From: Ruminococcus albus 7 = DSM 20455
Lineage (GTDB): Bacteria; Bacillota; Clostridia; Oscillospirales; Ruminococcaceae
Length of the DNA: 32,000 bases
Assembly: GCF_000179635.2 (NCBI RefSeq)
Contig: NC_014833.1
Span: 840,001-872,000 of the forward strand
Reading direction: 5' to 3'
Below are positions 1-24,512 of the stretch, piece after piece. Numbering within the stretch: position 1 is the first letter of the stretch; each line of letters opens with the position of its first letter. The position numbers and the translations under genes were made by a program. The notes under the pieces were generated by a model. It saw nothing but the letters and a program-made list of their open reading frames with translations, ran no database searches and had not been told where the DNA came from.

Positions 1-855
1 TATAGTAATAGTAACAGCGTTTTTAATAGCGTTAGCAATGTCCCACTTGCCGTTGACTTTAACTGCAACAGCCAATTGATATGTCCTGCCGGGTGTAAGA
101 TTCTTGGGAGATGTGAAGACAGTAACATCAGCAGGGATATCAGAAGTCCACACTCTCCACTTGCCTGCTAAATATACAGCTATACCATACTTTTCAGCAT
201 TCACAACAGGATTCCAATTTAAACGTATCTGGTGATACTCTTCGCTTACTGCAGCTTTAACGAACATTTTCTTCGGATGAGGACAATTGGGTTCATCGAT
301 CAGCTTATACTTCAAGCCGTTTGCTTTTGCATATTTTTCAGCATATGAACCGCCGTAGCAGTTGATAGTTAAGTTCTTTAATGGCTTATATTCTCTTGCT
401 TTGTTATCATAGTATGTAAATGCGTTTTTTCCTATGCTTGTTACACTTTCAGGTATTGTTATAATTTCAAGACCCTCACATAATACAAATGCACTATTAT
501 CAATAGTTTTCACACTATCGGGAATAACAACATTTTTCATACTTCTACAACCTGCAAAAGCGAACGCTCCTATATACTCTAAGTTTCCAGAAAATGAAAT
601 ACTTTCAATACCAGCACAACCTGAAAACGTTCCTCTTTCAATACGCTCTACACCATCAGGTATAACAACACTCTTAATGTTTGCGCAACTCGAAAAAGCA
701 TTATCACCTATATTCTTCAAGCCCTTAGATAATGTAATACTTTTAAGGCTATCGCACCCCCAAAACGCCATTTCATTAATAAATTCAACGTCATCAGGTA
801 TAACGATATTTTTTATTTTACTACAACCTCCAAACGCATGCTCATCAATATATTT

Positions 856-1878
856 CATGGTTATCCCTTTAACACACCACAGATAATTTACAATGCTGTC
901 CAAATAAACAGACCTCAAAAACCGGAAAATATAGTATAATAGTGACAGGAAACGAAAGGAGCTGTCGCTATGTCAAAAAGATTTCCGAAACCTGAGATCA
1001 CACTTGATGGGATATACTCAAAGTTCGCAGATGAAAGCTTTTGCAAGGATTTTCTGCTTGATATCCGCTTTGAAAAGGGTTTTGCCTGCCCGTTTTGCGG
1101 TGGCTCTGAGTACCGCAGGATAAGGTCACGCCATCTGCTGCGCTGCAAGTTCTGTAAAGCAGATATATCCGCCACAAACGGAACTTTTATGCACAGAACA
1201 CATATTCCGCTCAGACTGTGGATAGTCACCGCATTCCTCATTATGAGCAACAAATGCAGCGTTTCTGCTGTTACGCTGATGAGGTCTTTGGGGGTGACCT
1301 ACAAGACTGCATGGTACATCCTTCACCGCATCAGAAAAGCTATGAAATGCCGTGAAGAACGTTATTTGCTGGACGGAATCGTTGAACTTGATGACACGTA
1401 TCTCGGTGCTCCGACTCACGGTAAAAAGCGTGGCAGAGGAACTGAAAAAGTCAAGATGATAGTAGCTTTGTCAAAGAACGCAGCAGGAAATCCCGAGTAC
1501 GTTAAAATGAGCGATGTGCCGAATTTAAAGGGCATAACTGTGGGTAGATTTGCCAGGGATAATATCCGCGCAGGCTCGAAGATCGAGAGTGATAATGCTC
1601 GAAGTTACAAGAAACCGCTGGCACAGAAATACTTCCATGTTTTTGAGACATATGATCCGACAAGCGGTCAGCTGAATTGGATGCATAAAGTTATATCAAA
1701 CTTCAAAGCAATGATCATGGGAACTTACCACGGAAACGAAAAGATCCACACAGCGTTATATGCTGCCGAATACTGTTACAAATTCAACCGCCGAAAGCTC
1801 GGGAATAGTGCTTATTTACGGCTTTTAGCTGCTTTGGTGCAGTGATCTTACTTGTGGTGTGTTAAGGGGATAACCATT
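856..1878 (+). mobile_element. IS1595-family insertion sequence, copy 1 (1023 bp)
   Basis: Terminal inverted repeats CATGGTTATCCCTTTAACACACCACA (left) and TGTGGTGTGTTAAGGGGATAACCATT (right). An 8-bp direct target duplication ATATATTT sits at 848-855 and 1879-1886. There is a single transposase ORF. A near-identical copy lies at 9271-10293. Confidence 0.85.
970..1845 (+). CDS. IS1595-family (ISXO2-like) DDE transposase with N-terminal zinc ribbon
   Basis: 291-aa ORF. Zinc ribbon CPFCGGSEY...CKFC followed by TNGTFMHRTHIPLRLW, then VELDDTYLG and IESDNARSY acidic motifs typical of ISXO2-like DDE transposases. RBS AAAGGAG lies upstream of the ATG. Confidence 0.9.
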   Translation: MSKRFPKPEITLDGIYSKFADESFCKDFLLDIRFEKGFACPFCGGSEYRRIRSRHLLRCKFCKADISATNGTFMHRTHIPLRLWIVTAFLIMSNKCSVSAVTLMRSLGVTYKTAWYILHRIRKAMKCREERYLLDGIVELDDTYLGAPTHGKKRGRGTEKVKMIVALSKNAAGNPEYVKMSDVPNLKGITVGRFARDNIRAGSKIESDNARSYKKPLAQKYFHVFETYDPTSGQLNWMHKVISNFKAMIMGTYHGNEKIHTALYAAEYCYKFNRRKLGNSAYLRLLAALVQ

Positions 1879-2324
1879 ATATATTTTAATTTTTCCGGTA
1901 ACGTAATTATTTCAATGCTATCACTATCAGAAAATGCATTGGCACATATAGCAGTAACATTGATCTCGGTACCATCATAACATTTTATCTGACTAGGAAC
2001 CTCGACCTCTGTTTCAGAACCATAGTACTTTATAATGCCGATAGTACCGTCTTCCAGCATAGTATACTCATAATCGCCAAAAGTAAGTACTTCCGCACTT
2101 GACGAAATAACTGCATTGTCCACCACTACGTTAGGCAAAATTGCACCGCCGAATACTAATGTCAGCGACAGCAGACCTGCTACTATCTTCTTTTTGTTCA
2201 TTATGTCCTCCTAAATATTGTTATAAAATCAAACGACACCCATCTTTCAACCTATACGACTAAATGTGTCGTTTGATGGCAATTGTCTGTCCTTTCGACA
2301 TTATGTCAATTGACAGTTTTCACC

Positions 2325-3617
2325 TTATCTGGCAGTAAGGACAAATGATCTTCTGTCGATATCATAGGTATCCCATTTACCGTTGATTTTGGCACATATA
2401 ACTATCTCATACTTATGACCGCGATACAGACTTGGCGACATATACTCATTAGAATCGGTATAAGCCTGAACTTTCCACTTGCCTGCGATCTTTACAGCAA
2501 CGCCGTACTCTTCAGCATCAGAAACTCTTGTCCAGAACATACGGAATCGGCGTGAATTCAGATCATACTCCATTGATAACAGACTTGGATAATAGCCCCT
2601 TCCCTGGGCATCAGTGACCCTGAATTTAATGCCGTTATCCAGAGCATAATTCATCGCCTCAGATTTTTTGTGAACAGTAATTTTAAGTTTCGGCAACGGC
2701 TTATAGCAATCATTCTCGTAATCGTATTTATCAAATACATGGCTTCCTATTTCAACTACACTTGAAGGTATAACTGCACCTTGAAGTGCTGTACAGTTTC
2801 CAAACACACCATTACCCAATTCAGTTACTTTATCCGGTATAGTTATATCTTTAAGACTTGTGCATCCGCAAAAGATATTGCTTTCGATAGACTTTAAATT
2901 TTCTGATAAAACAACACTCTTTAATTCTGTACAATATTCAAATGCCGATGATTTCAAAGAAGTAACTTTGTCAGGTATAACTATCGATTTCAATGACGAG
3001 CAAAATCCGAATACTCTTTCATCGACAGTCTTTAGTTTTTTTGATAAAGTTATGCTTTCAAGAGATGAACAACCCAGAAAAGCTGCTTTTCCAATAGAAA
3101 CAACTCTGTCAGGTATAACGATCTCTTTCAAAGCTTCACAATCGATGAATGCACCCTCACCGATAGTTTTCAAGTTATTCGATAAAGTTATATTTTCAAG
3201 ATTATCGCAGTCAAAAAAGGCATAAACACCAATGGATGTCACGCTGTCAGGCAGATCGATATCTACAAGACCATTGCAATCAGCAAATGCTTGTTCTCCT
3301 ATGATCTCCACACCATCGGGTATAATTATTTTTTCGATTTTTCTGCCATGAAATGCATCATCACAAATGGCAGTAACATATTCATCATTTATCTCCTCCG
3401 GTATCTCGACCACAGTATCACGACCCATGTATCCTGTTATACCGATAGTACCATCTTCAAGCACAGTGTAATAAAAATCACCGTATCTGAATTCCTCAGT
3501 TCTTTCCGCACTTGCAGATATAACTGTACTGCTGTTAACTGCCATATCAGGTACAGCTGCACCGCCAAATACGAATGTCAGCGCCAGCAGACCCGCCGTG
3601 ATTTTCTTGTTATTCAT
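2325..3617 (-). CDS. BspA-type leucine-rich-repeat secreted surface protein with diverged C-terminal conserved module
   Basis: The likely start is ATG at 3617 (MNNKKITAGLLALTFVFGGAAVP signal peptide) behind RBS AGGAGGT. About 10 repeats of IxIPDxVxxIGxxAFxxCxxLxxI. The C-terminus RFRMFWTRVSDAEEYGVAVKIAGKWKVQ...INGKWDT is a diverged copy of the shared module. Confidence 0.85.
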   Translation of the reverse strand: MNNKKITAGLLALTFVFGGAAVPDMAVNSSTVISASAERTEEFRYGDFYYTVLEDGTIGITGYMGRDTVVEIPEEINDEYVTAICDDAFHGRKIEKIIIPDGVEIIGEQAFADCNGLVDIDLPDSVTSIGVYAFFDCDNLENITLSNNLKTIGEGAFIDCEALKEIVIPDRVVSIGKAAFLGCSSLESITLSKKLKTVDERVFGFCSSLKSIVIPDKVTSLKSSAFEYCTELKSVVLSENLKSIESNIFCGCTSLKDITIPDKVTELGNGVFGNCTALQGAVIPSSVVEIGSHVFDKYDYENDCYKPLPKLKITVHKKSEAMNYALDNGIKFRVTDAQGRGYYPSLLSMEYDLNSRRFRMFWTRVSDAEEYGVAVKIAGKWKVQAYTDSNEYMSPSLYRGHKYEIVICAKINGKWDTYDIDRRSFVLTAR

Positions 3618-3803
3618 TCCATTACCTCCTGATTTTCTAAACAGATAAAACAAACGACATAAGATATCCGCTTATCCATGAGCATATATGTGCTATCATC
3701 CGGATAAGTATGAAAAATTATGTCGTTCGATAATTATTATATATCTTTTTAAATTGTATGTCAACAGGTTGTTACAAATTACTTTACAGTAACCTGTTAC
3801 ATA

Positions 3804-4076
3804 TTACTTAACAGTAACAGTCACAGCGTTCTTGATAGCGTTTGCAGTATCCCACTTGCCGTTTACTCTGGCTGCAATTGCAACTTTGTAAGTCTTGCCG
3901 GGAGTCAAACTCTTTGGAGTAGTATATGAAGTGCCAGTAATGTTCTTATCCTGAACCTTCCACTTGCCTGCCAGATAAACAGCTACGCCGTATCTATCAG
4001 CACCTTCGACCTTGTCCCATGTGAATCTTACCTGATGGTATTTTTTTCTTGCTATATTATTTTTAATTGAAAACAA
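3804..4076 (-). pseudogene. Orphan copy of the ~85-aa C-terminal module (no signal peptide or catalytic/LRR part; only a TTG start)
   Basis: YHQVRFTWDKVEGADRYGVAVYLAGKWKVQ...KVAIAARVNGKWDTANAIKNAVTVTVK is highly similar to the C-termini of the GH9 (20219-20480) and GH11 (23460-23730) enzymes. The frame closes immediately upstream and no ATG is present. Confidence 0.6.
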
Positions 4077-4853
4077 TAATTGCCAAAGTTTCTTTTATGT
4101 TCATAGTTAATTGAAAGGATATGTGGTAATAAACAGTGGGGGAGGGGAGTCAATCTTCTTTTTCAGCATCTGTTCCTAAGAAGACAGAACATAAGCTCAG
4201 CATAGGCTTCTTTCTGTATTTCTGTATAGCACTTCTGATAGAAACGAGCCGCCAATTATCTATATTATAATCTTCCGGAAGGGGAGTGGGGTCATCAAAC
4301 TCATCCAGCATAGCTTCTTTATTAGGTTTGGTAGGTTCTTTCGGGATCGAAACCAGAACTTCGATTTCGTGAGGAAGATTTGTTTCATTTTAACCCAAGA
4401 GTCTGTCACATTAGCCAATGTGGTGGGCTCTTATTTTTTAGGAAACTCAAAGCAATTTTCTTTACCTGATGCAAACACTGCTTGATATATATTGCATGAA
4501 ATCTGGATTTAGTTTTGTGCAAGTATCCAAAGCTCACTATAATGGTGGTAAAGTGCTTGATGCGTCACCAAGATGGTGGTATAATGTAATCAAGAAGAAG
4601 ATGATGAAACCTATACGAATAAGGATGGATATAAAACGGAACTGCCGAGCAGCTATTATAATCCCGACCAGATTTTCAATAATAAGGAATATGCTACGTA
4701 CTATTGGGAAGCTATTAAGATTCGTTTTGAAATAGTTTAAATTTTCGTCCGAAGTACTAACCTGGAATAAAGCTTAAAATAGAATAAATTCAGTAATTGT
4801 AAATGCAGAATATGAGAACGTCGTGACGATACATAAGGTGAAATAAACTTACT

Positions 4854-5141
4854 ATGAGTGATATGAAAAACGTATATACCGGAGCCTTTGGCAAAGTGAA
4901 TTCTCCCAAGGAACAGTATCAGATAATGAATGAAAACTACAGCAAAATATGCCTGGAATTTGCTGGAATATGCCGTAGATACCGACTTATGCTAGATGAA
5001 AAGTTCAAGGAGATAGTTAGGCTTAGAGATGAAGTGATAAAGCATCAAAATACTATCTCTGCGCAAAATCGGCAGATAAGAAATCTGCAAAAGGAAAATT
5101 CTAAGTTAAAGAAAGCATTGCAAAAACAAAAAAAGAAATAA
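4854..5141 (+). CDS. Hypothetical small coiled-coil protein
   Basis: 95-aa ORF. The C-terminal half is heptad-like and K/E/Q-rich (RLRDEVIKHQNTISAQNRQIRNLQKENSKLKKALQKQKKK). No recognisable family. Confidence 0.4.
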   Translation: MSDMKNVYTGAFGKVNSPKEQYQIMNENYSKICLEFAGICRRYRLMLDEKFKEIVRLRDEVIKHQNTISAQNRQIRNLQKENSKLKKALQKQKKK

Positions 5142-5220
5142 ACGGAAAATCATAAAAAAATCTAAGATACAAAAACGTACCAGCTTATATTGGGCACCTT
5201 TTCTTCCTAGTGCGGATGAA

Positions 5221-5502
5221 ATGTATCCGCTTTACAACTGGGCACTGGAAAATCCTCAGTGGTGGATAACCGGATTTGATCCAAACTGGAAAAATAAGGT
5301 TGACTGTATTAACGGAATGGATTGGCCACTAATGAAAGAAAATCTGATTATGATTGGTTCTGTTGATTTGAGTCAGTTTTCTGATGAAGCAATTGATGAG
5401 ATAATGGAAAAAGTTAATGATTCAAATCAGGATGTGATTGTAGATAAAAATAATAAAACTATATGGATAGTATTCGGAAATATGATTGGGAGTAGGGTAT
5501 GA
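5221..5502 (+). CDS. Hypothetical small protein, translationally coupled to the downstream lipoprotein
   Basis: 93-aa ORF. Its stop overlaps the next start (ATGA at 5499-5502). It shares a VDLSQ(F/V)..E.I.D motif with the 6734-6982 product. Confidence 0.45.
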   Translation: MYPLYNWALENPQWWITGFDPNWKNKVDCINGMDWPLMKENLIMIGSVDLSQFSDEAIDEIMEKVNDSNQDVIVDKNNKTIWIVFGNMIGSRV

Positions 5503-6119
5503 AGATCAAAATAGCGTTAAGTATTTTGACTATAATAATACTTTGTTTTTCATCATGTGGTAATGTGTATGAGAATTTACATTCTGATATCGAAAATCAG
5601 AGCATTGAGTCCAATGAAGAAAGCAACTATACTGAAGATAATAATATCGGTAATGATCTTAAAACTCGAAAGATAACACATGGCTATAAACGTGTGATCG
5701 ATGAATATGCTGAAAAAGCAATGGCGTGTTTTGTTAGTAAAGATACAGAAGGTTTATTATCGTTGTTTTCAGATATGTCCAATGAAAACTATTCTCTTGG
5801 TGATGAAATAGATAGAGCCTATGATTTTCTGGGTGGAGATATAATTTCTTTTGGTGAAATAGAATCGCATACGGGAGGATCGACTTTTGGCGGCGGACAT
5901 ACGAGCCGACAGACAGGTACATCATATATATACGAAGTGAAAACGGATAAAGATGAATTTGAGATTTTTATTGGTTGTGTAATAATCAATGACGATGACA
6001 TATCTCAGGTTGGTATCCAGAATATAAAAATCAAGAATTCAAGCTTTGATATTAATGATCCTGATAAAGAAGAAAATATGGTATCGATTGGCGAATTTTT
6101 AGGCAGTTGGTATGGTTAA
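5499..6119 (+). CDS. Putative lipoprotein (paralog A)
   Basis: Signal peptide with lipobox-like LCFSSC|GN. Paralogous to 6141-6734 (GEIESHTGGSTFGGGHTSRQTG...IGCVIINDDDISQVGIQNIKI versus GEINHTFGGKTFGGGNVSRLTG...INCVMKYDDDNSEIGIQNINI). Confidence 0.7.
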   Translation: MKIKIALSILTIIILCFSSCGNVYENLHSDIENQSIESNEESNYTEDNNIGNDLKTRKITHGYKRVIDEYAEKAMACFVSKDTEGLLSLFSDMSNENYSLGDEIDRAYDFLGGDIISFGEIESHTGGSTFGGGHTSRQTGTSYIYEVKTDKDEFEIFIGCVIINDDDISQVGIQNIKIKNSSFDINDPDKEENMVSIGEFLGSWYG

Positions 6120-6140
6120 GCTTATTGGAGGATATCTATA

Positions 6141-6734
6141 ATGTACAAAATAAAACTTATGATAGTGCTTGTTTTATCATGTACGTTTCTTTATTCTTGT
6201 ACATCTGATATTAGCAGTATCCATGATGAGTCAGAAGAACTTAAAATCGCAGAAAGTTCTTTGGCTGAAAGATTCAACCCTCTTACCGATTATAAAAAAT
6301 ATGGAAAACAGATGGATGATTTTGCAGAAGATGTTGCGAATGGCTTTATAAACAAAGACTACGAAATGATAAAACAGAATTTCTGTCAGAGATCCCTTGA
6401 TACTTACGATCTGGATACGGATATAAATAATGTTTTTGAAAAGATCGGTTCTGATATATTATCATATGGAGAAATTAATCATACATTTGGAGGGAAAACA
6501 TTCGGCGGTGGAAATGTCAGCAGATTGACGGGTTCGGTTGAGATCGATGATGTTAAAACTGAAGATAATTCATATGTGATACATATAAACTGTGTAATGA
6601 AGTACGATGATGACAATTCAGAGATTGGTATACAAAATATCAACATAACTCCAAGTGATTGGAAGGCTCGTGAAGATCCGGAGCATGAGTATTTTTGGGA
6701 TATCGGCGAGGTATATGACAGTTGGAATTGGTGA
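6141..6734 (+). CDS. Putative lipoprotein (paralog B)
   Basis: Signal peptide with lipobox-like FLYSC|TS. RBS GGAGGA upstream. Paralog of 5499-6119. Confidence 0.7.
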   Translation: MYKIKLMIVLVLSCTFLYSCTSDISSIHDESEELKIAESSLAERFNPLTDYKKYGKQMDDFAEDVANGFINKDYEMIKQNFCQRSLDTYDLDTDINNVFEKIGSDILSYGEINHTFGGKTFGGGNVSRLTGSVEIDDVKTEDNSYVIHINCVMKYDDDNSEIGIQNINITPSDWKAREDPEHEYFWDIGEVYDSWNW

Positions 6735-6982
6735 TGCTTGATGTTTATAAATGGAGTGAAGGCTTATCAGAAGGAGATTTATTTAATCTGAATTATTATG
6801 GCCTTGCAAGAATATTTAAAGATTATGGTTGCTATGAAACTACCATAACATGGAAAAAGGGATCTAGATACCCCAATTTAAGTGGCTATGGTGTAGTTGA
6901 TTTATCTCAAGTGGATTTTGAAGGCATTTCCGATCCGATTGTGAATAGCACAACTATTTTACTTAATTCCCTAGTGGTCTAG
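6734..6982 (+). CDS. Hypothetical small protein
   Basis: The ATG at 6734 overlaps the TGA of the upstream lipoprotein gene (TGATG). Weakly related to the 5221-5502 product. Confidence 0.45.
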   Translation: MLDVYKWSEGLSEGDLFNLNYYGLARIFKDYGCYETTITWKKGSRYPNLSGYGVVDLSQVDFEGISDPIVNSTTILLNSLVV

Positions 6983-7374
6983 TTGTACTCGTTAACACGC
7001 AGCAGAGTTATGTACTCAAATCATTCACGTTTAATAACAATAGCTGAACGAAGCATAGCTCTTTTTGAGAAACCAGATCTGACGACTTTGATAGTTGATT
7101 CGGGCAACTCAGAAAGATCTGAGCTTTGAAAAAGTAGATCATAAAACCTCGCCTTTTCGATACAGAAGAAACGGTAAAATTACCTTGCATAATTTTGATA
7201 ACAGCAACTCCATTAGGTGTTTTTTCTTGCAATGATATAATTCAAGAATAATTGGCTGTTTTCTATAATTATATAGTGACTCATTGAAAATTATTAGTTC
7301 TGAAACTACGTGATTATATTGGATTTTAAAGCTTTGCTTGGAGCTATACAGATAGCTAGTGGAGGTGTTTATCA

Positions 7375-7914
7375 TTGAAAATCAATAAATTTTTGAATGC
7401 TTCAATATTTATTCTTTTAGGACTTGTTGTTTTTATTGCGTTGTTAAGCAAATATTTTGAACTATGCAGCAATAAAATCACTATGCTTTCTTTATGTGGG
7501 TATATATTATGTTTAGATTTGGTGCTATTAATTGCAAAATATATTATCTTAAGAAAAAAAAGATTTGCTATACTATCAGCTATTGGATGCTTGTTTTTGA
7601 TCTGCTGTGTTTTCATTGTCAATAATGATATAATAAATATTAAAGCAAGTTACAACGTTTATTCAACGGATAAATACTCGGTAATAGTAAGGTTAAATGA
7701 ATCTTTTATTTCTGGAAGATGTGATATATATATAAAAGAAAACAATATCATTATGAAAAAGGTTGGATATCCTTTAGGTGTTCCCCAAAAGTATGATCCT
7801 ATTGCAACAGAAAATTACAAGATAGATGATAATAAGTCTTCGATAATTCTTAAAATAAAATGTGATCCCAACAGAGATGAGTATGAACTTATTGAAATAC
7901 AAAGAGATAATTGA
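7375..7914 (+). CDS. Hypothetical membrane protein (3 predicted N-terminal TM helices)
   Basis: TTG start 7 nt after RBS GGAGGTG. Hydrophobic stretches FILLGLVVFIALL, LCGYILCLDLVLLIA and ILSAIGCLFLICCVFIV. Followed by a strong terminator. Confidence 0.55.
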   Translation: MKINKFLNASIFILLGLVVFIALLSKYFELCSNKITMLSLCGYILCLDLVLLIAKYIILRKKRFAILSAIGCLFLICCVFIVNNDIINIKASYNVYSTDKYSVIVRLNESFISGRCDIYIKENNIIMKKVGYPLGVPQKYDPIATENYKIDDNKSSIILKIKCDPNRDEYELIEIQRDN

Positions 7915-7932
7915 GTGAATAAAAATGAACTG

Positions 7933-7980
7933 AAATAACACTTATTCAAGAAATATTCTTGAATGAGTGTTATTTTGTTT
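7933..7980 (+). terminator. Rho-independent terminator of 7375-7914
   Basis: An ~18-bp stem AAATAACACTTATTCAAG / CTTGAATGAGTGTTATTT (one G-U pair) followed by TTTTGTTTT. Confidence 0.7.
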
Positions 7981-8079
7981 TCCACACCAATGCAGATGTT
8001 TTCCTATGTTTTCTCGTAAGCGTATAACCCCCCGCATCATAAAAGCAAACAGCCGGGCAGATAACACCCGGCTGTAACA

Positions 8080-8619
8080 TCATATTCTGGCTTTGATTTC
8101 TCCATTTCTCTTTGCGTCCATGTATATTTCTTTGAAATCAGCTTTGCTGTTCGGACCGAATATGATCGGCATAACAGATACAAGGCCATCGGAAATGATC
8201 GCATTTTTAAATGGCAGAAGCGCTGCATCAAGCAAAGTTGGCATCGGTGCATTTCTCAGCATTTCCTCCCAACTGCTGACAATGCCGTTTACAAGAAAAA
8301 CAGAATTGTCATCGATCGATATAAATACCGATCCCTTTTTCAAATGTCGCTCAATGATAAATCTGCCGGTGATGCACCCTTTCCAGCTTTTAAGTATCTC
8401 CATGTGTTATTCGGGCAGATCCGATCGCTCAAGATAATCATCAATGATCCATGTCCGTTCCCATAAAAAGTGGGCAACCTCCGCAGCATCCTGTGGGTCG
8501 ATCATTCCTTGCCCGAAATAATCTTCCTCAGGAAGTATATGATATTCTCTGTTCACATAGTCAAGCAGTGGAAAAAACAGTTCATAAAACAGCTTTGCAT
8601 CTTCATTACTAAGTTTCAT
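8080..8619 (-). pseudogene. IS66 passenger ORF of unknown function, read as one ~178-codon frame interrupted by an in-frame TAA (or as two ORFs of 70 and 107 aa)
   Basis: It lies inside the IS66 inverted repeats, downstream of tnpC. Its ATG (8619) overlaps the tnpC stop by 11 nt and follows GGAGGG. 8407-8619 and 8080-8403 are in the same frame, separated only by TAA-CAC (..SDLPE*HMEILKSW..). Confidence 0.45.
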
Positions 8620-9270
8620 TTTCTTCCCTCCATGGTAATAATATCGTTCCCGCAGGCTGTGAAAACAGCTCGGTCAGGTATTTCTCAGCATCAACACCGT
8701 TCGCCTGTGCAGTTGAAATGATCGAATACAGCGTTGCACTTGATCTGGCTCCGTTTGCTGTATTTGAAAACAGCCAATTTTTTCGGCCTAACGCAAACGG
8801 TCTTATTGCGTTTTCGGCTCTGTTGTTGTCGATAGGCACGTCTCCGTTTTCAAGAAACGTGTAAAGATATTTCCGTTCATTCAACGCATATCTTACTGCA
8901 TCTGTCAGCTTGCCCTTACCACTGACCTGAACATTTTCAAGCCACGCAAAAAACTCGTCAAGCAAAGGCTTTACCTTCACAAGGCGCTGTTTATATCTGT
9001 ATTCTGTGGAGCTGTCGGCAAGCAGATTTTCTTCGTGATATATCTTGTTGAAATATTCTACTGCCTTTGCCGCAACAGAAGTGCTGTGCAGCTTTTGGTC
9101 GTTCGGAAGAGCCTGAATAAAACCACGCCTTGCATGAGTCATACAGCCGCATCGCTTAGCACCCTCGACTGCATTGTAGGCATCGTATCCGTCACAGATA
9201 AGATAGCCGATAAATCCTTTCAGGAAATTCGAGGCGTGCTCACCCTTTCGTGTCGGCTGATAATCGAAAA

Positions 9271-10293
9271 CATGGTTATCCCTTTAACACACCACAGATA
9301 ATTTACAATGCTGTCCAAATAAACAGACCTCAAAAACCGAAAAATATTGTATAATAGTGACAGAAACCGAAGGGAGCTGTCGCTATGTCAAAAAGATTTC
9401 CGAAACCTGAGATCACACTTGATGGGATATACTCAAAGTTCGCAGATGAAAGCTTTTGCAAGGATTTTCTGCTTGATATCCGCTTTGAAAAGGGCTTTGC
9501 CTGTCCGTTTTGCGGTGGCTCTGAGTACCGCAGGATAAGGTCACGCCATCAGCTGCGCTGCAAGTTCTGTAAAGCAGATATATCCGCCACAAACGGAACT
9601 TTTATGCACAGAACACATATTCCGCTCAGACTGTGGATAGTCACCGCATTCCTCATTATGAGCAACAAATGCAGTGTTTCTGCTGTTACGCTGATGAGGT
9701 CTTTGGGGGTGACCTACAAGACTGCATGGTACATCCTTCATCGCATCAGAAAAGCTATGAAATGCCGTGAAGAACGCTATTTGCTTGACGGGATCGTTGA
9801 ACTTGATGACACGTATCTCGGTGCTCCGACTCACGGTAAAAAGCGTGGTAGAGGTACTGAAAAAGTCAAAATGATCGTAGCTTTATCAAAGAACTCAGCA
9901 GGAAATCCCGAGTACGTTAAAATGAGCGATGTGCCGAATTTAAAGGGTATAACTGTTGGTAGATTTGCCAGGGATAATATCCGCGCAGGCTCGAAGATCG
10001 AGAGTGATAATGCTCGAAGTTACAAGAAACCGTTGGCACAGAAATACTTCCATGTTTTTGAAACATATGATCCGACAAGCGGTCAGCTGAACTGGATGCA
10101 TAAAGTTATATCAAACTTCAAAGCAATGATCATGGGAACTTACCACGGAAACGAAAAGATCCACACAGCGTTATATGCTGCCGAATACTGCTACAAATTC
10201 AACCGTCGTAAGCTGGGAAACAGTGCGTATTTAAGGCTTTTGGCTGCTTTGGTGCAGTAATCTTACTTGTGGTGTGTTAAGGGGATAACCATA
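9271..10293 (+). mobile_element. IS1595-family insertion sequence, copy 2 (1023 bp), nested in IS66 tnpC
   Basis: Same inverted repeats as copy 1. 8-bp target duplication ATCGAAAA at 9263-9270 and 10294-10301. Confidence 0.85.
9385..10260 (+). CDS. IS1595-family (ISXO2-like) DDE transposase
   Basis: 291 aa. It differs from the copy-1 protein at only two residues (L56Q, A171S) in the supplied translations. Confidence 0.9.
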   Translation: MSKRFPKPEITLDGIYSKFADESFCKDFLLDIRFEKGFACPFCGGSEYRRIRSRHQLRCKFCKADISATNGTFMHRTHIPLRLWIVTAFLIMSNKCSVSAVTLMRSLGVTYKTAWYILHRIRKAMKCREERYLLDGIVELDDTYLGAPTHGKKRGRGTEKVKMIVALSKNSAGNPEYVKMSDVPNLKGITVGRFARDNIRAGSKIESDNARSYKKPLAQKYFHVFETYDPTSGQLNWMHKVISNFKAMIMGTYHGNEKIHTALYAAEYCYKFNRRKLGNSAYLRLLAALVQ

Positions 10294-13593: not shown

Positions 13594-13703
13594 TTTTGAG
13601 AAGTCATATCCTGATGGCAGACTGTCAAAAGTCTTGCCTGAACCTTTCAGAGCAACGAAAGGATTGTATCACAAAAATGAGAAATTGTCAAGTGCGTCTT
13701 AAC

Positions 13704-14165
13704 ATGAATTATGAGATATGCATCGAAGAAAGCTCACCTGTCAAAGTATTGAGCAATGTTATAGATGAGATCTATCAAAAAGAGGAATACACGATAGTAA
13801 GCAAGTGGAATGGCGCCATACCCGAGGATATTATGATGAAGATACTCATCTACGGCTACATGAACGACTCTTTTTCAAGCCGTAAGATTGAACAGCTCTG
13901 CAAAAGAGATATCCATTTCATGTGGCTTCTCGATGGCTTTGGAGCTCCGGATCACAGCACTATCTCAAGATTTCGACAGAAAATTGGAGAACAGATCGAG
14001 CGTGTGTTTTACGCTGTTGTAAAGTATCTTTTGAATATGAAAGAGATAAGCGGTGAGAACCTGTTCATTGATGGCACCAAGATCGAAGCTAATGCAAACA
14101 GATATACATTCATCTGGAAAAAGGCGGTCTCAAAAAACGAACAGAAAACGATGGCTATATTATAA
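13704..14165 (+). pseudogene. IS1182-family transposase, N-terminal fragment only
   Basis: IPEDIMMKILIYGYMNDSFSSRKIEQLCKRDIHFMWLLDGFGAPDHSTISRFRQ...ENLFIDGTKIEANANRYTFIWKK is the N-terminal (DUF772-like) part of IS1182/IS5-type transposases. The DDE domain is absent and homology ends near 14150. Confidence 0.65.
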
Positions 14166-17480: not shown

Positions 17481-20400
17481 ATGCACAAGAAAATGAAACG
17501 TATCGTTGCAGGGCTTGTGGCAATTACCGGTGCTTTATCGGCAACAGCCGCATCTGCACCTATGAGTGTGTTTGCAAAAAATGAACAGATAATTATTCAG
17601 TCTGACTTCAATGCAGGAATGGGTCTTCCCTGGCGCACATTCGAGAATGCACCGGCACGGCAGGACTTCGATATTTCAGACGGCACTTACAATATAACGA
17701 TACAGAATAACGATGGTCCCGAGTCAAGATGGGATCTTCAGTTCCTTTACAAAAATTTCTATATACAAAAAGGTCATACTTACAAGGTACACTGGAAGGT
17801 CAATTCTTCCAATGAGGGTGAGCTGTATACTAGGATCGGTAATTACGGCGGAACTGTTGAAGTTTGGCACAACAACTGCGGCAATGATGATTTCAATCAG
17901 ACGTGGGAATGCGTAAAGATCGCTAAAGGCGACAACACCTTCGATGCTGAGTTTACAGCTAAAGAAGATATGGATCGTGCTTGCTGGATATTTGATTACG
18001 GCGGACAGGGTCAGTATCAGCCGGTAGATTGCTTCCCCAACGGTACGGTCCTCAAATTCGACGATCTGTCTTTGATCGACACTACTTCCGGGGGCTGTAT
18101 AATCGATTTCATTCCTAACGATTGGGGCATTGTAAGACCCGAAAGCAACGTTCGTCTGAATCAGATCGGTTACTATCCTCAGCTGGAAAAGAGGGCTTCT
18201 TATGTTACCGATGCTGATATGCCACTGACTTTTGAGATACGTGACAGATCGGGCAACGTAAAGTACACAGGCAAGACGAAGGTATTCGGCAGCGATCCTG
18301 ATTCGGGTACAGGTAAGGATACAGTTGTTAATTCGGTCACAAGATACAAGGACTCGGGTGCCAACGTACATATCATTGATTTCTCTGATTTCAGAACTGT
18401 GGGCGAGTACACTATATTCGTTAAGGATACAGTCGGCGTAAGCGGCACTCAGGTGATGGGTTCTAAGAAAGTAAACGATACAAGGCTAAGCGGTGATAAG
18501 CTTTTATGGACAAATCCCGTTACTATGAAAACTTATACGATGAACGAGAGCAGTACATTCAGGATAGACAGACAGATCTATGATGATCAGCTGCTGAGGG
18601 ATTCCATGAACTACTTCTATCAGAACCGCTCAGGAGTCCCGATAAAGTCTGAGTACATCACATCAGGTGATAAGTCCGCACTGTCACACCTTAAATATGG
18701 TCATAACCCCGATATGGCTTATGTACAGAGCAAATGGGTAAAGACTTACGAAGATGACTTCTCTGATGGCGAGAAGGATAAGAAGATCGACGTTACAGGC
18801 GGATGGTACGCTGCAAGCGACCACGGTAAGTACGTTGTCGAAGGCGGTTTCTCCGTATGGACACTTCAGAACGCTTATGAGTTCTCCAAGAGGAGCGGCA
18901 ATACTCGCAAGTGGACTGACGGCACTATAGCTGTCCCCGAAAATAAGGATAATGCTCCCGATATACTGGATGAAGCAAGGGTAGAGCTGGAGTGGATGTT
19001 CAAAATGATAAATGAGGACGGCTTTGTATATCATTCAGTGCAGGACTATAAGTGGGCAGATATTCCGATCAGGTTAGGGCCCATATACTGTACGGACCCC
19101 CCAATGGAGTACACTTATCCTTACCGTATCGTCAGACCTCCTACGTATGCAGCCACATTCAACATGATCGCTTGTGCTGCACAGGCTTCACGTCTGTGGA
19201 AGGGCATAGATGATGACTTCGCAAAAGAGTGTCTGCAAAATGCACAGAACAGCTGGAAGGCTATCATGGCTAAGCAGTCCAATTGGAACGTTACAAGTGG
19301 CTATTACTATGATGATCCTTACTTTGCTCCCAGTGAATCCGGCGGAAACAACTTTTTCGGTGACACCTATGTAGTTGACGATGCTTACTGGGCAGCTTGT
19401 GAGCTTTATGCTACAACAGGGGACTCGGCTTACTATGGCTTCTTAAAAAACTATAAAAATTATAATGATCCGTCAGGTCAGGATAAGGCATTCAGCCTGA
19501 CTTCCTGCCTGAGCGGTGGTGAGAACAACGGTTCGTTCGGTTCCTTCAATTGGGGCAATACTGCGGGTCTGGGTACCCTTTCACTCTACCTGAGCGACAA
19601 GACATCTTCTGCTGACAGGAAGACTATTGTCAATTCTATCAAAAATATTGCTGACCAATATATTATTCAGATGAGTAAAGAAGGTATGGGCATACCTTAC
19701 AAGAGTGCGACTGTCGGGGGCTATATCGGTATCGGTGATGGAGATGTGTACACAGGTTATGAATACGGCTCCAACTCATTCGTTATCAACAACGCTATGG
19801 TCCTTGCATATGCTTATGATACTGATAACAGCAAATATATTTATCGGAACGGTGCTGCCGAAGCACTTGATTACCTCTTCGGACGCAACGGTCTGGGCTT
19901 CTCTTATGTATCAGGCTACGGCGATAAGGCAATGAGATCGCCACACCACAGATACTGGGCACAAAGTATTGATCCGTACTTCCCGGCGGCACCCTCAGGT
20001 GTTCTTGCAGGCGGTCCATGCTCAGATCTGTATCATGATAAATATCTTCGTGGTCTCGGCTATAAAAGAGGCACTTTAGCTGATCAGAAGTGCTATGTTG
20101 ACAGTGCAGAGGCATGGTCTGTAAATGATGTTTCCGGCAGCTGGAATGCTCCTCTGGTCTGGATGTCATCATTCATGAACGATCGTTTCGGCGGTCCGAA
20201 ACCAGTCCCCTATCCTACCAACATTAAGGTCGATTACAGTGAGGAGTATCATCAGGTAAGATTTACCTGGAACAAGGTGGAAAACGCTGACAGATACGGC
20301 ATAGCAGTTTATCTGGCAGGCAAGTGGAGAGTTCAGAAACAGGATATCACAGGCACTACCTACACTTCTCCCAAAAATCTGACTCCCGGCGTAACTTATA

Positions 20401-20483
20401 AGGTAGCGATTGCCGCAAGAGTGAACGGCACATGGGATACTGAAAATGCTATCAAACGTGCTTGTACTGTTACTATAAAGTGA
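17481..20483 (+). CDS. Multidomain glycoside hydrolase family 9 protein (signal peptide, CBM4/9-like module, Ig-like CelD_N module, GH9 domain, conserved C-terminal module)
   Basis: ATG at 17481 follows RBS AGGAGGG. Signal peptide MHKKMKRIVAGLVAITGALSATAASA. GH9 signature 1 SYVSGYGDKAMRSPHHR is intact. GGWYAASDHGKY and YVDSAEAWSVNDVSGSWNA are GH9 motifs with substitutions. C-terminus is YHQVRFTWNKVENADRYGIAVYLAGKWRVQ... Confidence 0.9.
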   Translation: MHKKMKRIVAGLVAITGALSATAASAPMSVFAKNEQIIIQSDFNAGMGLPWRTFENAPARQDFDISDGTYNITIQNNDGPESRWDLQFLYKNFYIQKGHTYKVHWKVNSSNEGELYTRIGNYGGTVEVWHNNCGNDDFNQTWECVKIAKGDNTFDAEFTAKEDMDRACWIFDYGGQGQYQPVDCFPNGTVLKFDDLSLIDTTSGGCIIDFIPNDWGIVRPESNVRLNQIGYYPQLEKRASYVTDADMPLTFEIRDRSGNVKYTGKTKVFGSDPDSGTGKDTVVNSVTRYKDSGANVHIIDFSDFRTVGEYTIFVKDTVGVSGTQVMGSKKVNDTRLSGDKLLWTNPVTMKTYTMNESSTFRIDRQIYDDQLLRDSMNYFYQNRSGVPIKSEYITSGDKSALSHLKYGHNPDMAYVQSKWVKTYEDDFSDGEKDKKIDVTGGWYAASDHGKYVVEGGFSVWTLQNAYEFSKRSGNTRKWTDGTIAVPENKDNAPDILDEARVELEWMFKMINEDGFVYHSVQDYKWADIPIRLGPIYCTDPPMEYTYPYRIVRPPTYAATFNMIACAAQASRLWKGIDDDFAKECLQNAQNSWKAIMAKQSNWNVTSGYYYDDPYFAPSESGGNNFFGDTYVVDDAYWAACELYATTGDSAYYGFLKNYKNYNDPSGQDKAFSLTSCLSGGENNGSFGSFNWGNTAGLGTLSLYLSDKTSSADRKTIVNSIKNIADQYIIQMSKEGMGIPYKSATVGGYIGIGDGDVYTGYEYGSNSFVINNAMVLAYAYDTDNSKYIYRNGAAEALDYLFGRNGLGFSYVSGYGDKAMRSPHHRYWAQSIDPYFPAAPSGVLAGGPCSDLYHDKYLRGLGYKRGTLADQKCYVDSAEAWSVNDVSGSWNAPLVWMSSFMNDRFGGPKPVPYPTNIKVDYSEEYHQVRFTWNKVENADRYGIAVYLAGKWRVQKQDITGTTYTSPKNLTPGVTYKVAIAARVNGTWDTENAIKRACTVTIK

Positions 20484-22011: not shown

Positions 22012-23169
22012 TCATACTTCAGGAAGAGTATCTATCATTCTCAGAATATATTTTCTGACAGCCACAGCATCTGCATCGGTTATGCCATCGCCACTGCCCG
22101 AACAATCAGCGTTTATTTTTCCCTGCTCAGTCAGCTTATACTTTGAAGGTGCTGACAATGTCTGCTTGATAAGTACGAAATCAGAAATATCCACTTTTCC
22201 GTCGCAGTTTGCATCACCATAAACTGCCTTTGGATTATCCGGAATATTGCTCTCTGTTATGGGAGCCATGCTCGGTTCGGTATCACCCCACCAGTCCCAA
22301 CGGTCAGCGGTACGGTATTTCTCCATATTTCCGCCTGCCGAAGTCCAGGTAAACACATTGTCGTAAAGATGCCCTTCGTTATAATAAAACTGTGCCATCG
22401 AACAGATCTCATCAGCATAGGTCTTGTATGCACCATCGTCCTCAGCCATATAGCACCAGCCTGTATTAAAGCCCTTAAGGCTGTTCCTTATGACCTGATA
22501 GCCGTGCATTCCCTCTTCATTAATACAGATCTCAGCAAAGTGGAGTATCTTTCTGATACCCATGTGATTTGAGATTATACAATCATAGAAATTGGATTCC
22601 GTGAAAGAATACTGAAACATCTCAGGGACGTTGTCCTCGGGCATGAACTTGGGATTGCAGTCTGCAAAAGCAGTAACAGCGGTCTGAAGAGTACCATATG
22701 CATGGGCAGAGTTAACACCCCAGCCGTCTTCATAGGCTGTTTCATGGTCTGAGCCTATCTTGCCTTCACCCAGAGTAGATTCACGGGTACCAAGTCCAAG
22801 AAACAAAGCATACACCTTTTCACGTTCCGGTTGGCCAAGACGAGTGGAGATAAGATCCCAGTGCTCATCTATCTCTTTATAGAGAGCGTACTTTACCTCC
22901 TGCACTGTCATATTATGGTTGATAGCGCGTATCTCAGCCGTAGAAGCGTTTGCAGGAGTATTTCTCTCCCCAAAGCCAAGGGGATTGCCAACTCCTTCCT
23001 TCTGTATATCACGGGAAGTATCGTGCAGAGGGTCGCAGGTATTTCCGGCACAATACCATTCGTCTGCCGAAGCAACGATAGAAGTATCCATATCACCTGC
23101 CGATATCGACATTGATGATACGATCATTGCAGCCGCGGTAATGACACCGAAAAATCGTCTTTTATTCAT
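22012..23169 (-). CDS. Secreted dockerin-bearing protein with a possible lysozyme-like/lytic-transglycosylase-like domain
   Basis: The likely start is ATG at 23169 after RBS GAGGTG, with signal peptide MNKRRFFGVITAAAMIVSSMSISA. The C-terminal type I dockerin duplicate is GDANCDGKVDISDFVLIKQ ... DCSGSGDGITDADAVAVRKYIL. The central motifs TRES, AYGTLQ and GFNTGW resemble SLT motifs ES / GLMQ / AYNxG. Confidence 0.75.
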   Translation of the reverse strand: MNKRRFFGVITAAAMIVSSMSISAGDMDTSIVASADEWYCAGNTCDPLHDTSRDIQKEGVGNPLGFGERNTPANASTAEIRAINHNMTVQEVKYALYKEIDEHWDLISTRLGQPEREKVYALFLGLGTRESTLGEGKIGSDHETAYEDGWGVNSAHAYGTLQTAVTAFADCNPKFMPEDNVPEMFQYSFTESNFYDCIISNHMGIRKILHFAEICINEEGMHGYQVIRNSLKGFNTGWCYMAEDDGAYKTYADEICSMAQFYYNEGHLYDNVFTWTSAGGNMEKYRTADRWDWWGDTEPSMAPITESNIPDNPKAVYGDANCDGKVDISDFVLIKQTLSAPSKYKLTEQGKINADCSGSGDGITDADAVAVRKYILRMIDTLPEV

Positions 23170-23303
23170 AAATAACACCTCATGTTTTGAGTCGATTTAC
23201 TGACACGGACAGACCTCTGTCAAAGTGAAATTGAGGTCTGTCCAGATTACCGTTACAAATTATATCACATTTCCATGTAAATTTCAATATGATATTATAA
23301 AAA

Positions 23304-23445
23304 ATGGCTATCCCCTTAACACACTGCACGCAAAATCACTGCACCAAAGCAGTCGATAGCCTTAAATACGCACTGTTTCCAAGTTTACAGCAGTTGGATC
23401 AGTAGCAGTATTCGGCAACATATAACGCTGTGTGGATCTTTTCGC
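23304..23445 (-). mobile_element. Truncated, diverged third IS1595-family copy (right-end ~140 bp only, inverted orientation)
   Basis: ATGGCTATCCCCTTAACACACTGCACG...CACTGCACCAAAGCAG...AGCAGTATTCGGCAACATATAACGCTGTGTGGATCTTTTCG aligns by eye (mostly matching, with scattered mismatches) to the reverse complement of 10141-10293. Homology ends 11 bp before the xylanase stop codon. Confidence 0.75.
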
Positions 23446-23456
23446 CTACTCAGTTA

Positions 23457-24512
23457 TCACTCTACAGTAAAAGTCACAGCGTTTTTGATAGCATTTGCAG
23501 TATCCCATTTGCCATTAACTTTGGCTGCGATAGCTACGTTGTAGGTCTTGCCCGGGGTGAGGTTCTTGGGAGTAGTATATTCTGTATCGGTGATACTCGC
23601 CTCCTGAACTCTCCACTTGCCTGCCAGATAAACAGCTACGCCGTAACTGTCAGCACCATTTACAGCGTCCCAAGTAAATCTCATCTGCTTGTACTGGCTG
23701 TCATATTCCATCTGTATGTTCTTAACGGAATCATCTTTATGATGTCCGCAGTCACAGATGCCTCGTGGATACATATTCATAGAAACTTCAACCTGACCAT
23801 CGCTCTCCCAACCTTCAACGCTGAAAGAAATATCGTACAGGTTCCCCACCTTCATACCCAGGTCCTCCCAAGCCTTGAAGTGTTTGGAAACGCTGATAGT
23901 ACCCTTGGTTCTCGTGTTCTGACGTATGCTTATATACTGTGTGAAATACCTGTCGCCTTCGATGGTATAGGAATTTTTGTTTATAGTATATACCTTGTAC
24001 TCACTTCCGTCAATATTAACGGAACCCTTGTACTGTGCAGAAGCAGACTGCGCAGGTGACCAGTTCTTCCAGTCTTCAATGATGTAGTACTCTACCAGAG
24101 GATTCTGCGCCCAGCCGTAGATACCGATCCTGGCGTTACCGGATGAACCTGCATACCAGATGCAGTCGTAGTCACAGTAGAAATTACCATAGTCCTTGTA
24201 AGTCTTGGGATTATTCAGACCCCAGCGAAGACCACGATTAGTAATGAAGTTTCCTCTCGTGTTGTTAGGACCACACTTCCACTGTGCGCGGAAACCACCG
24301 TCATTTTCGTGCAGTGTCATTGTAGAAGAATTATTGGTATCTGCCTGCCAGATCTCGTGGTGGTAGTCGTTGTACCAGCCGACTTCCTGTGTGTGTGACG
24401 GGCTCGTAGTGAGCGTCTTTGCAGCAGATGCAGTAACTGATGTTATAATAGGTGAAACCATCAGCACACCGGCAACAAGAGCGCCTAAAACACGTTTTGA
24501 AACATTTTTCAT
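23457..24512 (-). CDS. Glycoside hydrolase family 11 endo-1,4-beta-xylanase with conserved C-terminal module
   Basis: Signal peptide MKNVSKRVLGALVAGVLMVSPIITSVTASA after RBS GAGGAG. GH11 hallmarks YGWAQNPLVEYYIIEDW (nucleophile Glu) and SVEGWESDG (acid/base Glu). C-terminus is YKQMRFTWDAVNGADSYGVAVYLAGKWRVQ... Confidence 0.92.
   Translation of the reverse strand: MKNVSKRVLGALVAGVLMVSPIITSVTASAAKTLTTSPSHTQEVGWYNDYHHEIWQADTNNSSTMTLHENDGGFRAQWKCGPNNTRGNFITNRGLRWGLNNPKTYKDYGNFYCDYDCIWYAGSSGNARIGIYGWAQNPLVEYYIIEDWKNWSPAQSASAQYKGSVNIDGSEYKVYTINKNSYTIEGDRYFTQYISIRQNTRTKGTISVSKHFKAWEDLGMKVGNLYDISFSVEGWESDGQVEVSMNMYPRGICDCGHHKDDSVKNIQMEYDSQYKQMRFTWDAVNGADSYGVAVYLAGKWRVQEASITDTEYTTPKNLTPGKTYNVAIAAKVNGKWDTANAIKNAVTFTVE

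What the first reader, a model, noticed from the sequence alone, without database searches (positions are those of the whole stretch)
1..23730. One ~85-aa FN3-like C-terminal module shared by five otherwise unrelated genes
The same module (core YHQ(V/I)RFTW.kV.gAdrYG(V/I)AVYLAGKW(K/R)VQ ... TPG.TYkVAIAA.VNGKWDT.NAIKnAVT.T(V/I)K) ends the IS-split LRR protein (1-262), the second LRR protein (diverged, 2328-2575), an orphan ORF (3804-4076), the GH9 (20219-20480) and the GH11 (23460-23730). The W..V..A..Y pattern looks FN3-like. Its position and size recall cell-surface-anchoring or carbohydrate-binding C-terminal modules of ruminococcal enzymes, such as the CBM37 concept in R. albus, but I cannot verify that identity by eye. 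Several copies look very similar at the nucleotide level, which would allow module shuffling by recombination.
Basis: partly seen in the sequence, partly recalled or inferred. Interest (0 to 1): 0.5.

Follow-up and report, generated by a model that had tools for sequence, protein, structure and literature searches.

The report
CBM37 modules of Ruminococcus albus 7
The repeated ~85-residue tail is the already described family-37 carbohydrate-binding module (CBM37) of Ruminococcus albus, a fibronectin-III-type domain that this rumen bacterium uses in place of dockerins to hold enzymes and surface proteins on plant fibre and on its own cell wall, so the finding is real but ordinary.

Summary
The window is Ruminococcus albus 7 chromosome. 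Five copies of an ~85-aa module are present, and a six-frame HMM scan found no others. They end an IS-split BspA-type LRR gene, a second LRR gene (Rumal_0746), a 90-aa orphan ORF (Rumal_0747), a CBM4-Ig-GH9 cellulase and a GH11 xylanase.

The module is CBM37. The R. albus 8 orthologue of the GH9 gene matches both published cloning primers of Ra1589 exactly. Ra1589 is described as CBM4_9-Ig-GH9-CBM37, and its module is 98% identical to the window's.

The FN3 guess also holds. Pfam fn3 scores are just below threshold in all five copies. An AlphaFold2 model (pLDDT 94.6) hits only FN3 domains in PDB. A profile-profile comparison with true FN3 repeats gives 97% probability.

Three sub-claims fail or weaken:
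- The copies are not near-identical in DNA: 50-74% identity, longest identical run 34 nt, dS 0.85 to above 2.
- The two LRR hosts are paralogues (40% identity).
- The orphan is a 5'-truncated remnant without a signal peptide.

The literature already reports 77 CBM37 modules in this strain, many of them on LRR proteins. Novelty: already known. Interest is low.

The parts
1..261 (-). CBM37 copy M1, the C-terminus of the IS-disrupted LRR gene 'LRRa'. The last codon or codons and the stop lie beyond the window start.
   Evidence: E 1e-43
1..855 (-). 3' part of LRRa: BspA-type leucine-rich repeats, linker and CBM37.
   Evidence: open frame 1-855
856..1877 (+). IS1595-family insertion sequence with 25-bp terminal inverted repeats (transposase ORF 970-1845). 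It splits LRRa.
1878..2201 (-). 5' part of LRRa, starting at ATG 2201 with a signal peptide. The frame is restored when the IS and the 9-bp duplication are removed.
2325..3617 (-). LRRb = Rumal_0746 (ADU21284.1): signal peptide, LRR_5 repeats and a diverged CBM37 copy M2 at 2328-2591.
3804..4076 (-). Orphan ORF Rumal_0747 (ADU21285.1): CBM37 copy M3 only (3807-4070). It has a TTG start and no signal peptide, and is a 5'-truncated gene remnant.
17481..20483 (+). Cellulase with the architecture signal peptide, CBM4_9, Ig-like, GH9, CBM37 (M4 at 20217-20480). It is the orthologue of R. albus 8 Ra1589.
23457..24512 (-). GH11 xylanase ADU21304.1 with C-terminal CBM37 (M5 at 23460-23723).
22012..23178 (-). 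Neighbouring GH124 (Cel124) enzyme that carries a type I dockerin instead of CBM37. It is the contrast case within the same locus.

Best explanation
The module is the family-37 carbohydrate-binding module (CBM37) of Ruminococcus albus. The window is the R. albus 7 chromosome around Rumal_0746-0766.

CBM37 is a lineage-specific offshoot of the fibronectin type III fold. The predicted structure is a seven-strand beta-sandwich (A, B, C, C', E, F, G). It keeps the canonical FN3 core Trp (RFTW) and the F-strand Tyr (TYKVAIAA). It adds two invariant tryptophans (AGKW on C', NGxWD in the FG loop) and a short helix before strand G.

The module is fused, nearly always at the C-terminus, to secreted proteins: glycoside hydrolases, lyases, esterases, and above all BspA/DUF285-type LRR surface proteins. 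According to published experiments on homologous copies, it binds many insoluble polysaccharides with broad specificity and also binds the bacterium's own cell-wall carbohydrate. It thereby keeps enzymes at the cell surface or on the fibre, in place of the dockerin-cohesin system that R. albus largely lacks.

What is shown here: the identity of the module, its fold class, its copy number in the window, purifying selection, and the state of each host gene. What is inferred from the literature: binding and anchoring for these particular copies.

Of the five copies, three sit in intact secreted proteins (LRRb, GH9, GH11). One sits in a gene inactivated by an IS. One is a dead remnant.
For: Organism and genes. 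There are exact protein matches to R. albus 7 ADU21284.1, ADU21285.1 (Rumal_0747) and ADU21304.1 on a 3,685,408-bp contig.

CBM37 identity.
- The ORF L001:268-3267 (R. albus 8) carries both Ra1589 cloning primers with no mismatches. Ra1589 is published as CBM4_9-Ig-GH9-CBM37 (PMC5066209).
- The window GH9 is 86% identical to it overall, and the module is 98% identical.
- The primers used to amplify CBM37 of R. albus 8 Cel5G encode YPTNVQ and PKNLT, which are signature motifs of the module.
- The hosts of 107 module-bearing ORFs in R. albus-group genomes include GH48, GH9, GH10, GH11, GH26, GH98, GH74-like, PL11, CotH and many LRR proteins. This matches the published CBM37 repertoire (PMC4081043; PMC4300822).

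FN3 fold.
- Pfam fn3 scores 13.7-23.6 bits in all five copies.
- The AlphaFold2 model has pLDDT 94.6.
- The listed PDB matches are almost all FN3 domains, including all of the best ones, with TM 0.6-0.74.
- hhalign against FN3 repeats of P0081 gives 97.2% probability, E 3e-11.

Selection. dN/dS is 0.12-0.39 between paralogues with dS near saturation.

Secretion. The GH9, GH11, LRRa and LRRb proteins have N-terminal signal-peptide-like sequences.

Published function. Binding to polysaccharides and to the cell surface is summarised in PMC4081043 and PMC5066209. A CBM37 fusion bound PASC with Kd 1.7 uM (PMC10119399).
Against: - None of the five copies in this window has itself been tested for binding.
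- M2 is only 31-42% identical to the other copies and belongs to an LRR-associated sub-type. Its binding properties could differ.
- The dbCAN CBM37 HMM could not be run.
- In Ra3055, deleting CBM37 did not reduce activity on swollen cellulose and in fact raised it (PMC5066209). The module is therefore not simply a substrate-targeting aid.
- One published internal CBM37 (the first of the Cel5G pair) did not bind on its own. I recall this from Xu et al. 2004, which is not held in the library.
Confidence: 0.95

Rival explanations
1. The module is a generic bacterial FN3 spacer or linker domain with no binding or anchoring role of its own, like the FN3 modules found between the catalytic and binding modules of many clostridial glycanases.
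For: The fold and the profile homology are FN3. The best structural matches are the non-binding Fn3 of C. thermocellum CtXyl5A (5g56) and 3mpc. The CBM37 profile also picks up ordinary FN3 arrays in unrelated proteins.
Against: The module is terminal rather than placed between domains. It carries two extra invariant tryptophans and an NGxWD loop that FN3 repeats lack. Published work on homologous copies shows polysaccharide and cell-wall binding (PMC4081043, PMC10119399). dN/dS of 0.12-0.39 across saturated dS is stronger constraint than a spacer would need.
Confidence: 0.03
2. The module's main role is protein-protein assembly. It would work as a dockerin-like tag that docks enzymes onto a proteinaceous partner, for example the LRR proteins, rather than binding carbohydrate.
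For: About three quarters of the module-bearing ORFs sampled are LRR or DUF285 proteins. PMC4300822 speculates that CBM37 may coordinate an extracellular complex. CBM37 replaces dockerins in orthologous enzymes (PMC4081043).
Against: The LRR proteins carry the module themselves instead of a distinct receptor domain. Published assays show direct binding to purified polysaccharides and to cell-wall carbohydrate (as summarised in PMC4081043 and PMC5066209). No partner is known.
Confidence: 0.05
3. The similarity among the five copies is maintained by ongoing recombination or gene conversion between copies.
For: Identical runs of 30-34 nt exist between M3/M5 and M4/M5. Modules on different host classes reach about 90% amino-acid identity in other strains. 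In the GH9 orthologue pair the module has lower dS than the host part, 0.05 against 0.18.
Against: Paralogue dS is 0.85 to above 2 and nucleotide identity is 50-74%. M4 is closest to the modules of its orthologues in four other R. albus-group genomes. In 44 of 47 cases the nearest-neighbour module sits on the same host class. Sequence conservation is explained by purifying selection on the protein.
Confidence: 0.05

Closest known systems
CBM37 (CAZy carbohydrate-binding module family 37) of Ruminococcus albus. Founding members are the C-terminal 'X' modules of R. albus 8 Cel48A, Cel9B and Cel5G.
   Same: Same species. Same size of about 85-100 aa. Same C-terminal position on secreted GH9, GH11 and LRR proteins. 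The module is 98% identical to that of the published CBM37 enzyme Ra1589. The host repertoire is the same.
   Different: Nothing essential. M2 is a diverged LRR-associated sub-type, M1 lies in an IS-inactivated gene, and M3 is a truncated remnant.
Fibronectin type III domain (Pfam PF00041), in particular the bacterial Fn3 modules of clostridial glycanases (PDB 3mpc; the Fn3 of CtXyl5A, 5g56).
   Same: Predicted seven-strand beta-sandwich. Conserved B-strand Trp and F-strand Tyr. Profile-profile homology of 97%.
   Different: All five copies score below the Pfam gathering threshold. There are extra invariant Trp residues (AGKW, NGxWD) and a short helix before strand G. The module is terminal rather than internal, and its homologues have documented carbohydrate and cell-wall binding.
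Type I dockerin with cohesin (the cellulosome system of R. flavefaciens and C. thermocellum).
   Same: Same logic: a small C-terminal tag that localises many different secreted enzymes. Orthologous enzymes in R. flavefaciens carry a dockerin where R. albus carries CBM37. A dockerin-bearing GH124 lies between the two CBM37 enzymes in this window.
   Different: The fold is unrelated (Ca-binding EF-hand-like duplicated helix against FN3 sandwich). The dockerin ligand is a protein (cohesin), whereas the CBM37 ligand is carbohydrate.

Membership tests
CBM37 | Sequence homology to experimentally defined R. albus CBM37 modules. | tested here: met
   The R. albus 8 ORF in L001 was identified as Ra1589 by exact matches to both cloning primers. 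Ra1589 is published as carrying a C-terminal CBM37. Its module is 98% identical to M4. M1, M3 and M5 are 65-74% identical to M4 and M2 is 35% identical. All five score E 1e-41 or better with the joint HMM.
CBM37 | A match to the CAZy/dbCAN CBM37 model. | not testable with these tools
   No dbCAN library is available. Pfam and NCBIfam have no CBM37 model.
CBM37 | A module of about 100 residues appended, mostly C-terminally, to secreted CAZymes and non-catalytic (LRR) proteins. | tested here: met
   The published picture is in PMC4081043 and PMC4300822.
CBM37 | Restricted to R. albus and close relatives, and present in many copies per genome. | tested here: met
   The genome scan confirmed 264 stretches. 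All 77 loci kept come from R. albus strains 8, AR67 and KH2T6 or from Ruminococcus/Oscillospiraceae MAGs. The caveat is that the search patterns were narrow. The published count is 77 copies in R. albus 7.
CBM37 | Broad-specificity binding to insoluble polysaccharides and to the R. albus cell wall. | not testable with these tools
   Literature only (PMC4081043, PMC5066209, PMC10119399). None of the five copies here has been assayed.
Pfam fn3 (PF00041) | An HMM score at or above the gathering threshold of 25 bits. | tested here: not met
   The five copies score 17.9, 13.7, 19.9, 19.3 and 23.6 bits. Some close homologues do pass (P0007, P0020 and P0039; P0138).
FN3 fold / superfamily | A seven-strand beta-sandwich of FN3 topology and detectable homology to bona fide FN3 domains. 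| tested here: met
   The AlphaFold2 model has pLDDT 94.6 and strands A, B, C, C', E, F, G. The 16 Foldseek PDB matches with E below 1e-3 are FN3 domains or multidomain proteins that contain them. hhalign gives 97.2% probability against FN3 repeats of P0081, which scores 512 bits with Pfam fn3. This rests on a predicted structure, not a solved one.

The most novel reading that the evidence does not exclude
CBM37 would be primarily a cell-surface display tag derived from FN3, and its main clients would be BspA/DUF285 LRR adhesin-like proteins rather than enzymes. In the sample taken here about three quarters of the module-bearing ORFs are LRR proteins. The two extra invariant tryptophans (AGKW on strand C' and NGxWD in the FG loop) would form the ligand platform. 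No solved structure or published fold description of CBM37 turned up (none by sequence in the PDB; none in the papers searched), so a structure-guided definition of the binding face would be new.
Probability: 0.3. Interest if true: 0.35.

Novelty: already known. Interest (0 to 1): 0.12.

Why it matters
CBM37 is the device that lets R. albus, a major rumen cellulose degrader, work without a true cellulosome. Knowing that these five tails are CBM37 places the locus in a known system and annotates each gene:
- two intact CBM37 enzymes, a GH9 cellobiohydrolase-type cellulase and a GH11 xylanase;
- one intact LRR surface protein;
- one IS-inactivated LRR gene;
- one dead fragment.

Nothing here changes current understanding. 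The only modest additions are explicit evidence that CBM37 is an FN3 derivative, and evidence that the copies in this locus are old paralogues held by purifying selection rather than recent recombinants.

Tried and rejected
- A tblastn of the module against PLSDB plasmids found nothing, and NC_014824 (an R. albus 7 plasmid) is not in that collection. The plasmid-borne GH11-CBM22-GH10-CBM37 gene could therefore not serve as a reference.
- The founding papers are not held in the library: Devillard 2004 (PMC303442) and Ezer 2008 (PMC2593223). Xu 2004 was not looked up. Their content is cited only through later open papers.
- The Cel5G CBM37 primers have no exact DNA match in the fetched loci. Only the peptides they encode could be compared.
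- The supplements of PMC4300822 and PMC4081043 contain no per-gene CBM37 list with Rumal_0746, 0747 or 0766. The link to CBM37 had to go through the R. albus 8 orthologue.
- NCBIfam has no model for the module.
- A PDB sequence search gave only weak FN3 hits, so no CBM37 structure was found by sequence.
- AlphaFold2 coordinates cannot be read in the sandbox, so surface exposure of the conserved tryptophans could not be computed.
- The idea that near-identical DNA drives shuffling among the five copies was rejected on dS and identity.
Full report
**Observation.** Translating the stated coordinates shows the same ~85-residue module at the C-terminus of five ORFs:
- M1, 1-261(-). Its ORF runs off the window start.
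- M2, 2328-2591(-).
- M3, 3807-4070(-).
- M4, 20217-20480(+).
- M5, 23460-23723(-).

Twenty-two alignment columns are invariant, among them the W of RFTW, YG.AV, AGKW, P..L..G..Y and NG.WD. An HMM built from the five copies was run over all six reading frames of the window. It recovers exactly these five (E 1e-41 to 3e-48), and the next best segment scores only E 0.6. The core observation is therefore real and complete.

**Corrections to the observation.**
- The copies are not close in DNA. Pairwise nucleotide identity is 50-74% and amino-acid identity is 31-74%. The longest identical nucleotide run is 34 nt. Synonymous divergence between paralogues is 0.85 to above 2, with dN/dS 0.12-0.39. 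These are old paralogues under purifying selection.
- The hosts are not five unrelated genes. The non-module parts of the two LRR proteins are 40% identical over about 300 residues.
- The 90-aa orphan is a remnant. It has a TTG start and no signal peptide. Its nucleotide homology to full-length module-bearing genes begins abruptly at about 4045-4065. Members of its own 90%-identity cluster include a 269-aa DUF285-type LRR protein that ends in the same module. In R. albus KH2T6 the syntenic position holds a full-length 524-aa LRR-module gene, followed by a second LRR-module gene (L032).
- The 'IS-split' description is right. An IS1595-family element occupies 856-1877. It is 1022 bp long, has 25-bp inverted ends, and is 96.7% identical to a second copy at 9271-10292. 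Deleting it with a 9-bp target duplication fuses 1-855 and 1887-2201 into one open frame of at least 390 aa with a signal peptide, LRRs and the module.

**Where the window comes from.** Exact-sequence look-ups identify three proteins on a 3,685,408-bp contig of Ruminococcus albus 7 = DSM 20455:
- the GH11 protein as ADU21304.1 / WP_013497487;
- the orphan as ADU21285.1 (Rumal_0747);
- the second LRR protein as ADU21284.1.

**What the module is.** Pfam and NCBIfam have no dedicated model for it. A scan of one genome per species found 264 confirmed copies. All 77 loci kept are from R. albus 8, AR67 and KH2T6 or from Ruminococcus/Oscillospiraceae MAGs.

Locus L001 from R. albus 8 holds a 999-aa protein that is 86% identical to the window's GH9 protein, and its module is 98% identical. 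Both cloning primers published for R. albus 8 Ra1589 match this ORF exactly, at the mature N-terminus and at the stop codon. The paper describes Ra1589 as 'CBM4_9, an Ig-like motif, a GH9 catalytic domain followed by a C-terminally located CBM37' (PMC5066209). The module is therefore what the literature calls CBM37.

Two further lines agree with this:
- The primers used to amplify 'CBM37 from R. albus 8 Cel5G' encode YPTNVQ and PKNLT (PMC10119399 supplement). Both are signature motifs of the module (YPTNIK..., SPKNLTPG).
- The 107 module-bearing ORFs in the fetched loci include GH48, GH9, GH10, GH11, GH26, GH2, GH53, GH98, GH74-like, PL11, CotH and many LRR proteins. This is the repertoire published for CBM37 (PMC4081043; PMC4300822).

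The same papers report three relevant facts. R. albus 7 has 77 CBM37 modules. Thirty-four of its CBM37 proteins lack a catalytic domain, and nearly half of those carry leucine-rich repeats.

**Fold.**
- All five copies give Pfam fn3 hits just under the gathering score: 13.7-23.6 bits against 25.
- No PDB chain matches the module by sequence beyond weak FN3 hits.
- An AlphaFold2 model of the GH9 module, built from a 25-sequence alignment, has mean pLDDT 94.6. It shows seven strands in FN3 order and a short helix before the last strand.
- Foldseek against PDB returns mostly FN3 domains. The best hits are the Fn3 of C. thermocellum CtXyl5A (5g56) and the C. thermocellum Fn3-like protein 3mpc, with TM 0.6-0.74.
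- A profile of 108 modules was aligned to the 13 FN3 repeats of P0081, a protein that scores 512 bits with Pfam fn3. The alignment gives 97.2% probability, E 3e-11, over 61 columns.
- An exhaustive HMM search of 1.84 billion representative proteins gives 3041 hits at E<=1e-3 and 196 at E<=1e-30. The two top-ranked multi-repeat hits that I checked (P0081, P0082) are ordinary FN3 arrays, matched over profile positions ~10-75.

CBM37 is thus a specialised FN3 derivative. Relative to canonical FN3 it has two additional invariant tryptophans (AGKW, NGxWD) and the pre-G helix. That these form the binding face is my inference and was not tested.

**Mechanism.** What follows is taken from the literature on homologous copies, not shown for these five. 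CBM37 binds xylan, chitin, crystalline and swollen cellulose and plant cell walls. It also binds R. albus cell-wall carbohydrate, so it can hold enzymes on the cell surface and possibly pass them to the substrate (summaries in PMC4081043, PMC4954948 and PMC5066209). Fusing a CBM37 to a cellodextrin phosphorylase gave PASC binding with Kd 1.7 uM (PMC10119399).

What I found here is consistent with this. The GH9, GH11 and both LRR proteins have N-terminal signal-peptide-like sequences. The module is terminal in almost all the ORFs examined. A neighbouring GH124 carries a dockerin instead, which matches the published table entry for GH124 in strain 7.

**Shuffling.** Module M4 is nearest to the modules of its GH9 orthologues in four other R. 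albus-group genomes: 97.7% in one and 90.7% in three. In 44 of 47 classifiable cases the nearest-neighbour module sits on the same host class. Recent history is therefore vertical.

At greater depth, modules on DUF285 proteins and on GH9 enzymes are as similar to each other (mean 79.6%, maximum 90.8%) as DUF285 modules are among themselves (79.1%). The module was evidently moved between host types in the past. The sample is biased towards modules similar to M4, so this is only indicative.

**Verdict.** The thing itself is a well-described feature of R. albus. Novelty: already known. Interest is low.

Noticed in passing
window 856-1877 and 9271-10292: There are two copies, 96.7% identical, of a 1022-bp IS1595-family insertion sequence with 25-bp terminal inverted repeats and roughly 9-bp target duplications. 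Copy 1 splits an LRR-CBM37 gene. Copy 2 sits inside an IS66 transposase gene, a nested insertion (tnpC halves at 8609-9142 and 10231-11151).
   Followed up: yes
window 8609-12477: An IS66-family element lies on the minus strand. It has HTH_Tnp_1 ORFs (12049-12477 and 11594-11959), the IS66 Orf2/TnpB (11244-11600) and the split TnpC. A DUF772 transposase fragment follows at 13596-14165. The region is a hotspot for mobile elements.
   Followed up: partly
window ~4100-8000: A low-GC island (29-36% against about 40-46% in the flanks) lies directly upstream of the truncated orphan. It holds small plus-strand ORFs, including two tandem DUF5104 paralogues (5499-6119 and 6141-6734). It may be the insertion that truncated the orphan's parent gene. 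I did not determine its boundaries.
   Followed up: no
window 22012-23178 (-): A GH124 (Cel124) enzyme with a type I dockerin lies between the GH9-CBM37 and GH11-CBM37 genes. The two localisation tags therefore coexist in one locus of a bacterium that has at most one cohesin.
   Followed up: partly
window 17481-20480 vs L001:268-3264: Between the R. albus 7 and 8 GH9 orthologues, the CBM37 module is more conserved than the rest of the gene, including at synonymous sites (nucleotide identity 98.1% against 90.4%; dS 0.05 against 0.18). With only 88 codons this could be chance, a codon or RNA constraint, or a conversion event.
   Followed up: partly
window 17409 vs 17481: The longest GH9 ORF starts at ATG 17409. 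The R. albus 8 orthologue and the signal peptide both indicate that the real start is ATG 17481 (MHKKMKRIV...). The 1024-aa form is not in the protein collection.
   Followed up: partly
L015, L011, L032, L054, L026, L042 (R. albus-group loci): Module-bearing genes are often adjacent, with two or three within about 6 kb. These are mostly tandem LRR-CBM37 genes, like the array of three (LRRa, LRRb, orphan) at window 1-4076.
   Followed up: partly
L016, L034, L036, L056 (GH2 proteins), about residues 917-985: A domain that passes Pfam fn3 lies directly upstream of the terminal CBM37. It is also hit by the CBM37 HMM (E about 1e-16). It looks like an intermediate form between ordinary FN3 and CBM37.
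   Followed up: no
window 25185-31688 (-): This is a minus-strand gene block unrelated to the finding. It contains TelA-like, DUF7192, AAA_5 ATPase (714 aa), an unassigned 371-aa ORF, and a 441-aa ORF with a sub-threshold OrfB_IS605 (TnpB-like) hit.
   Followed up: no
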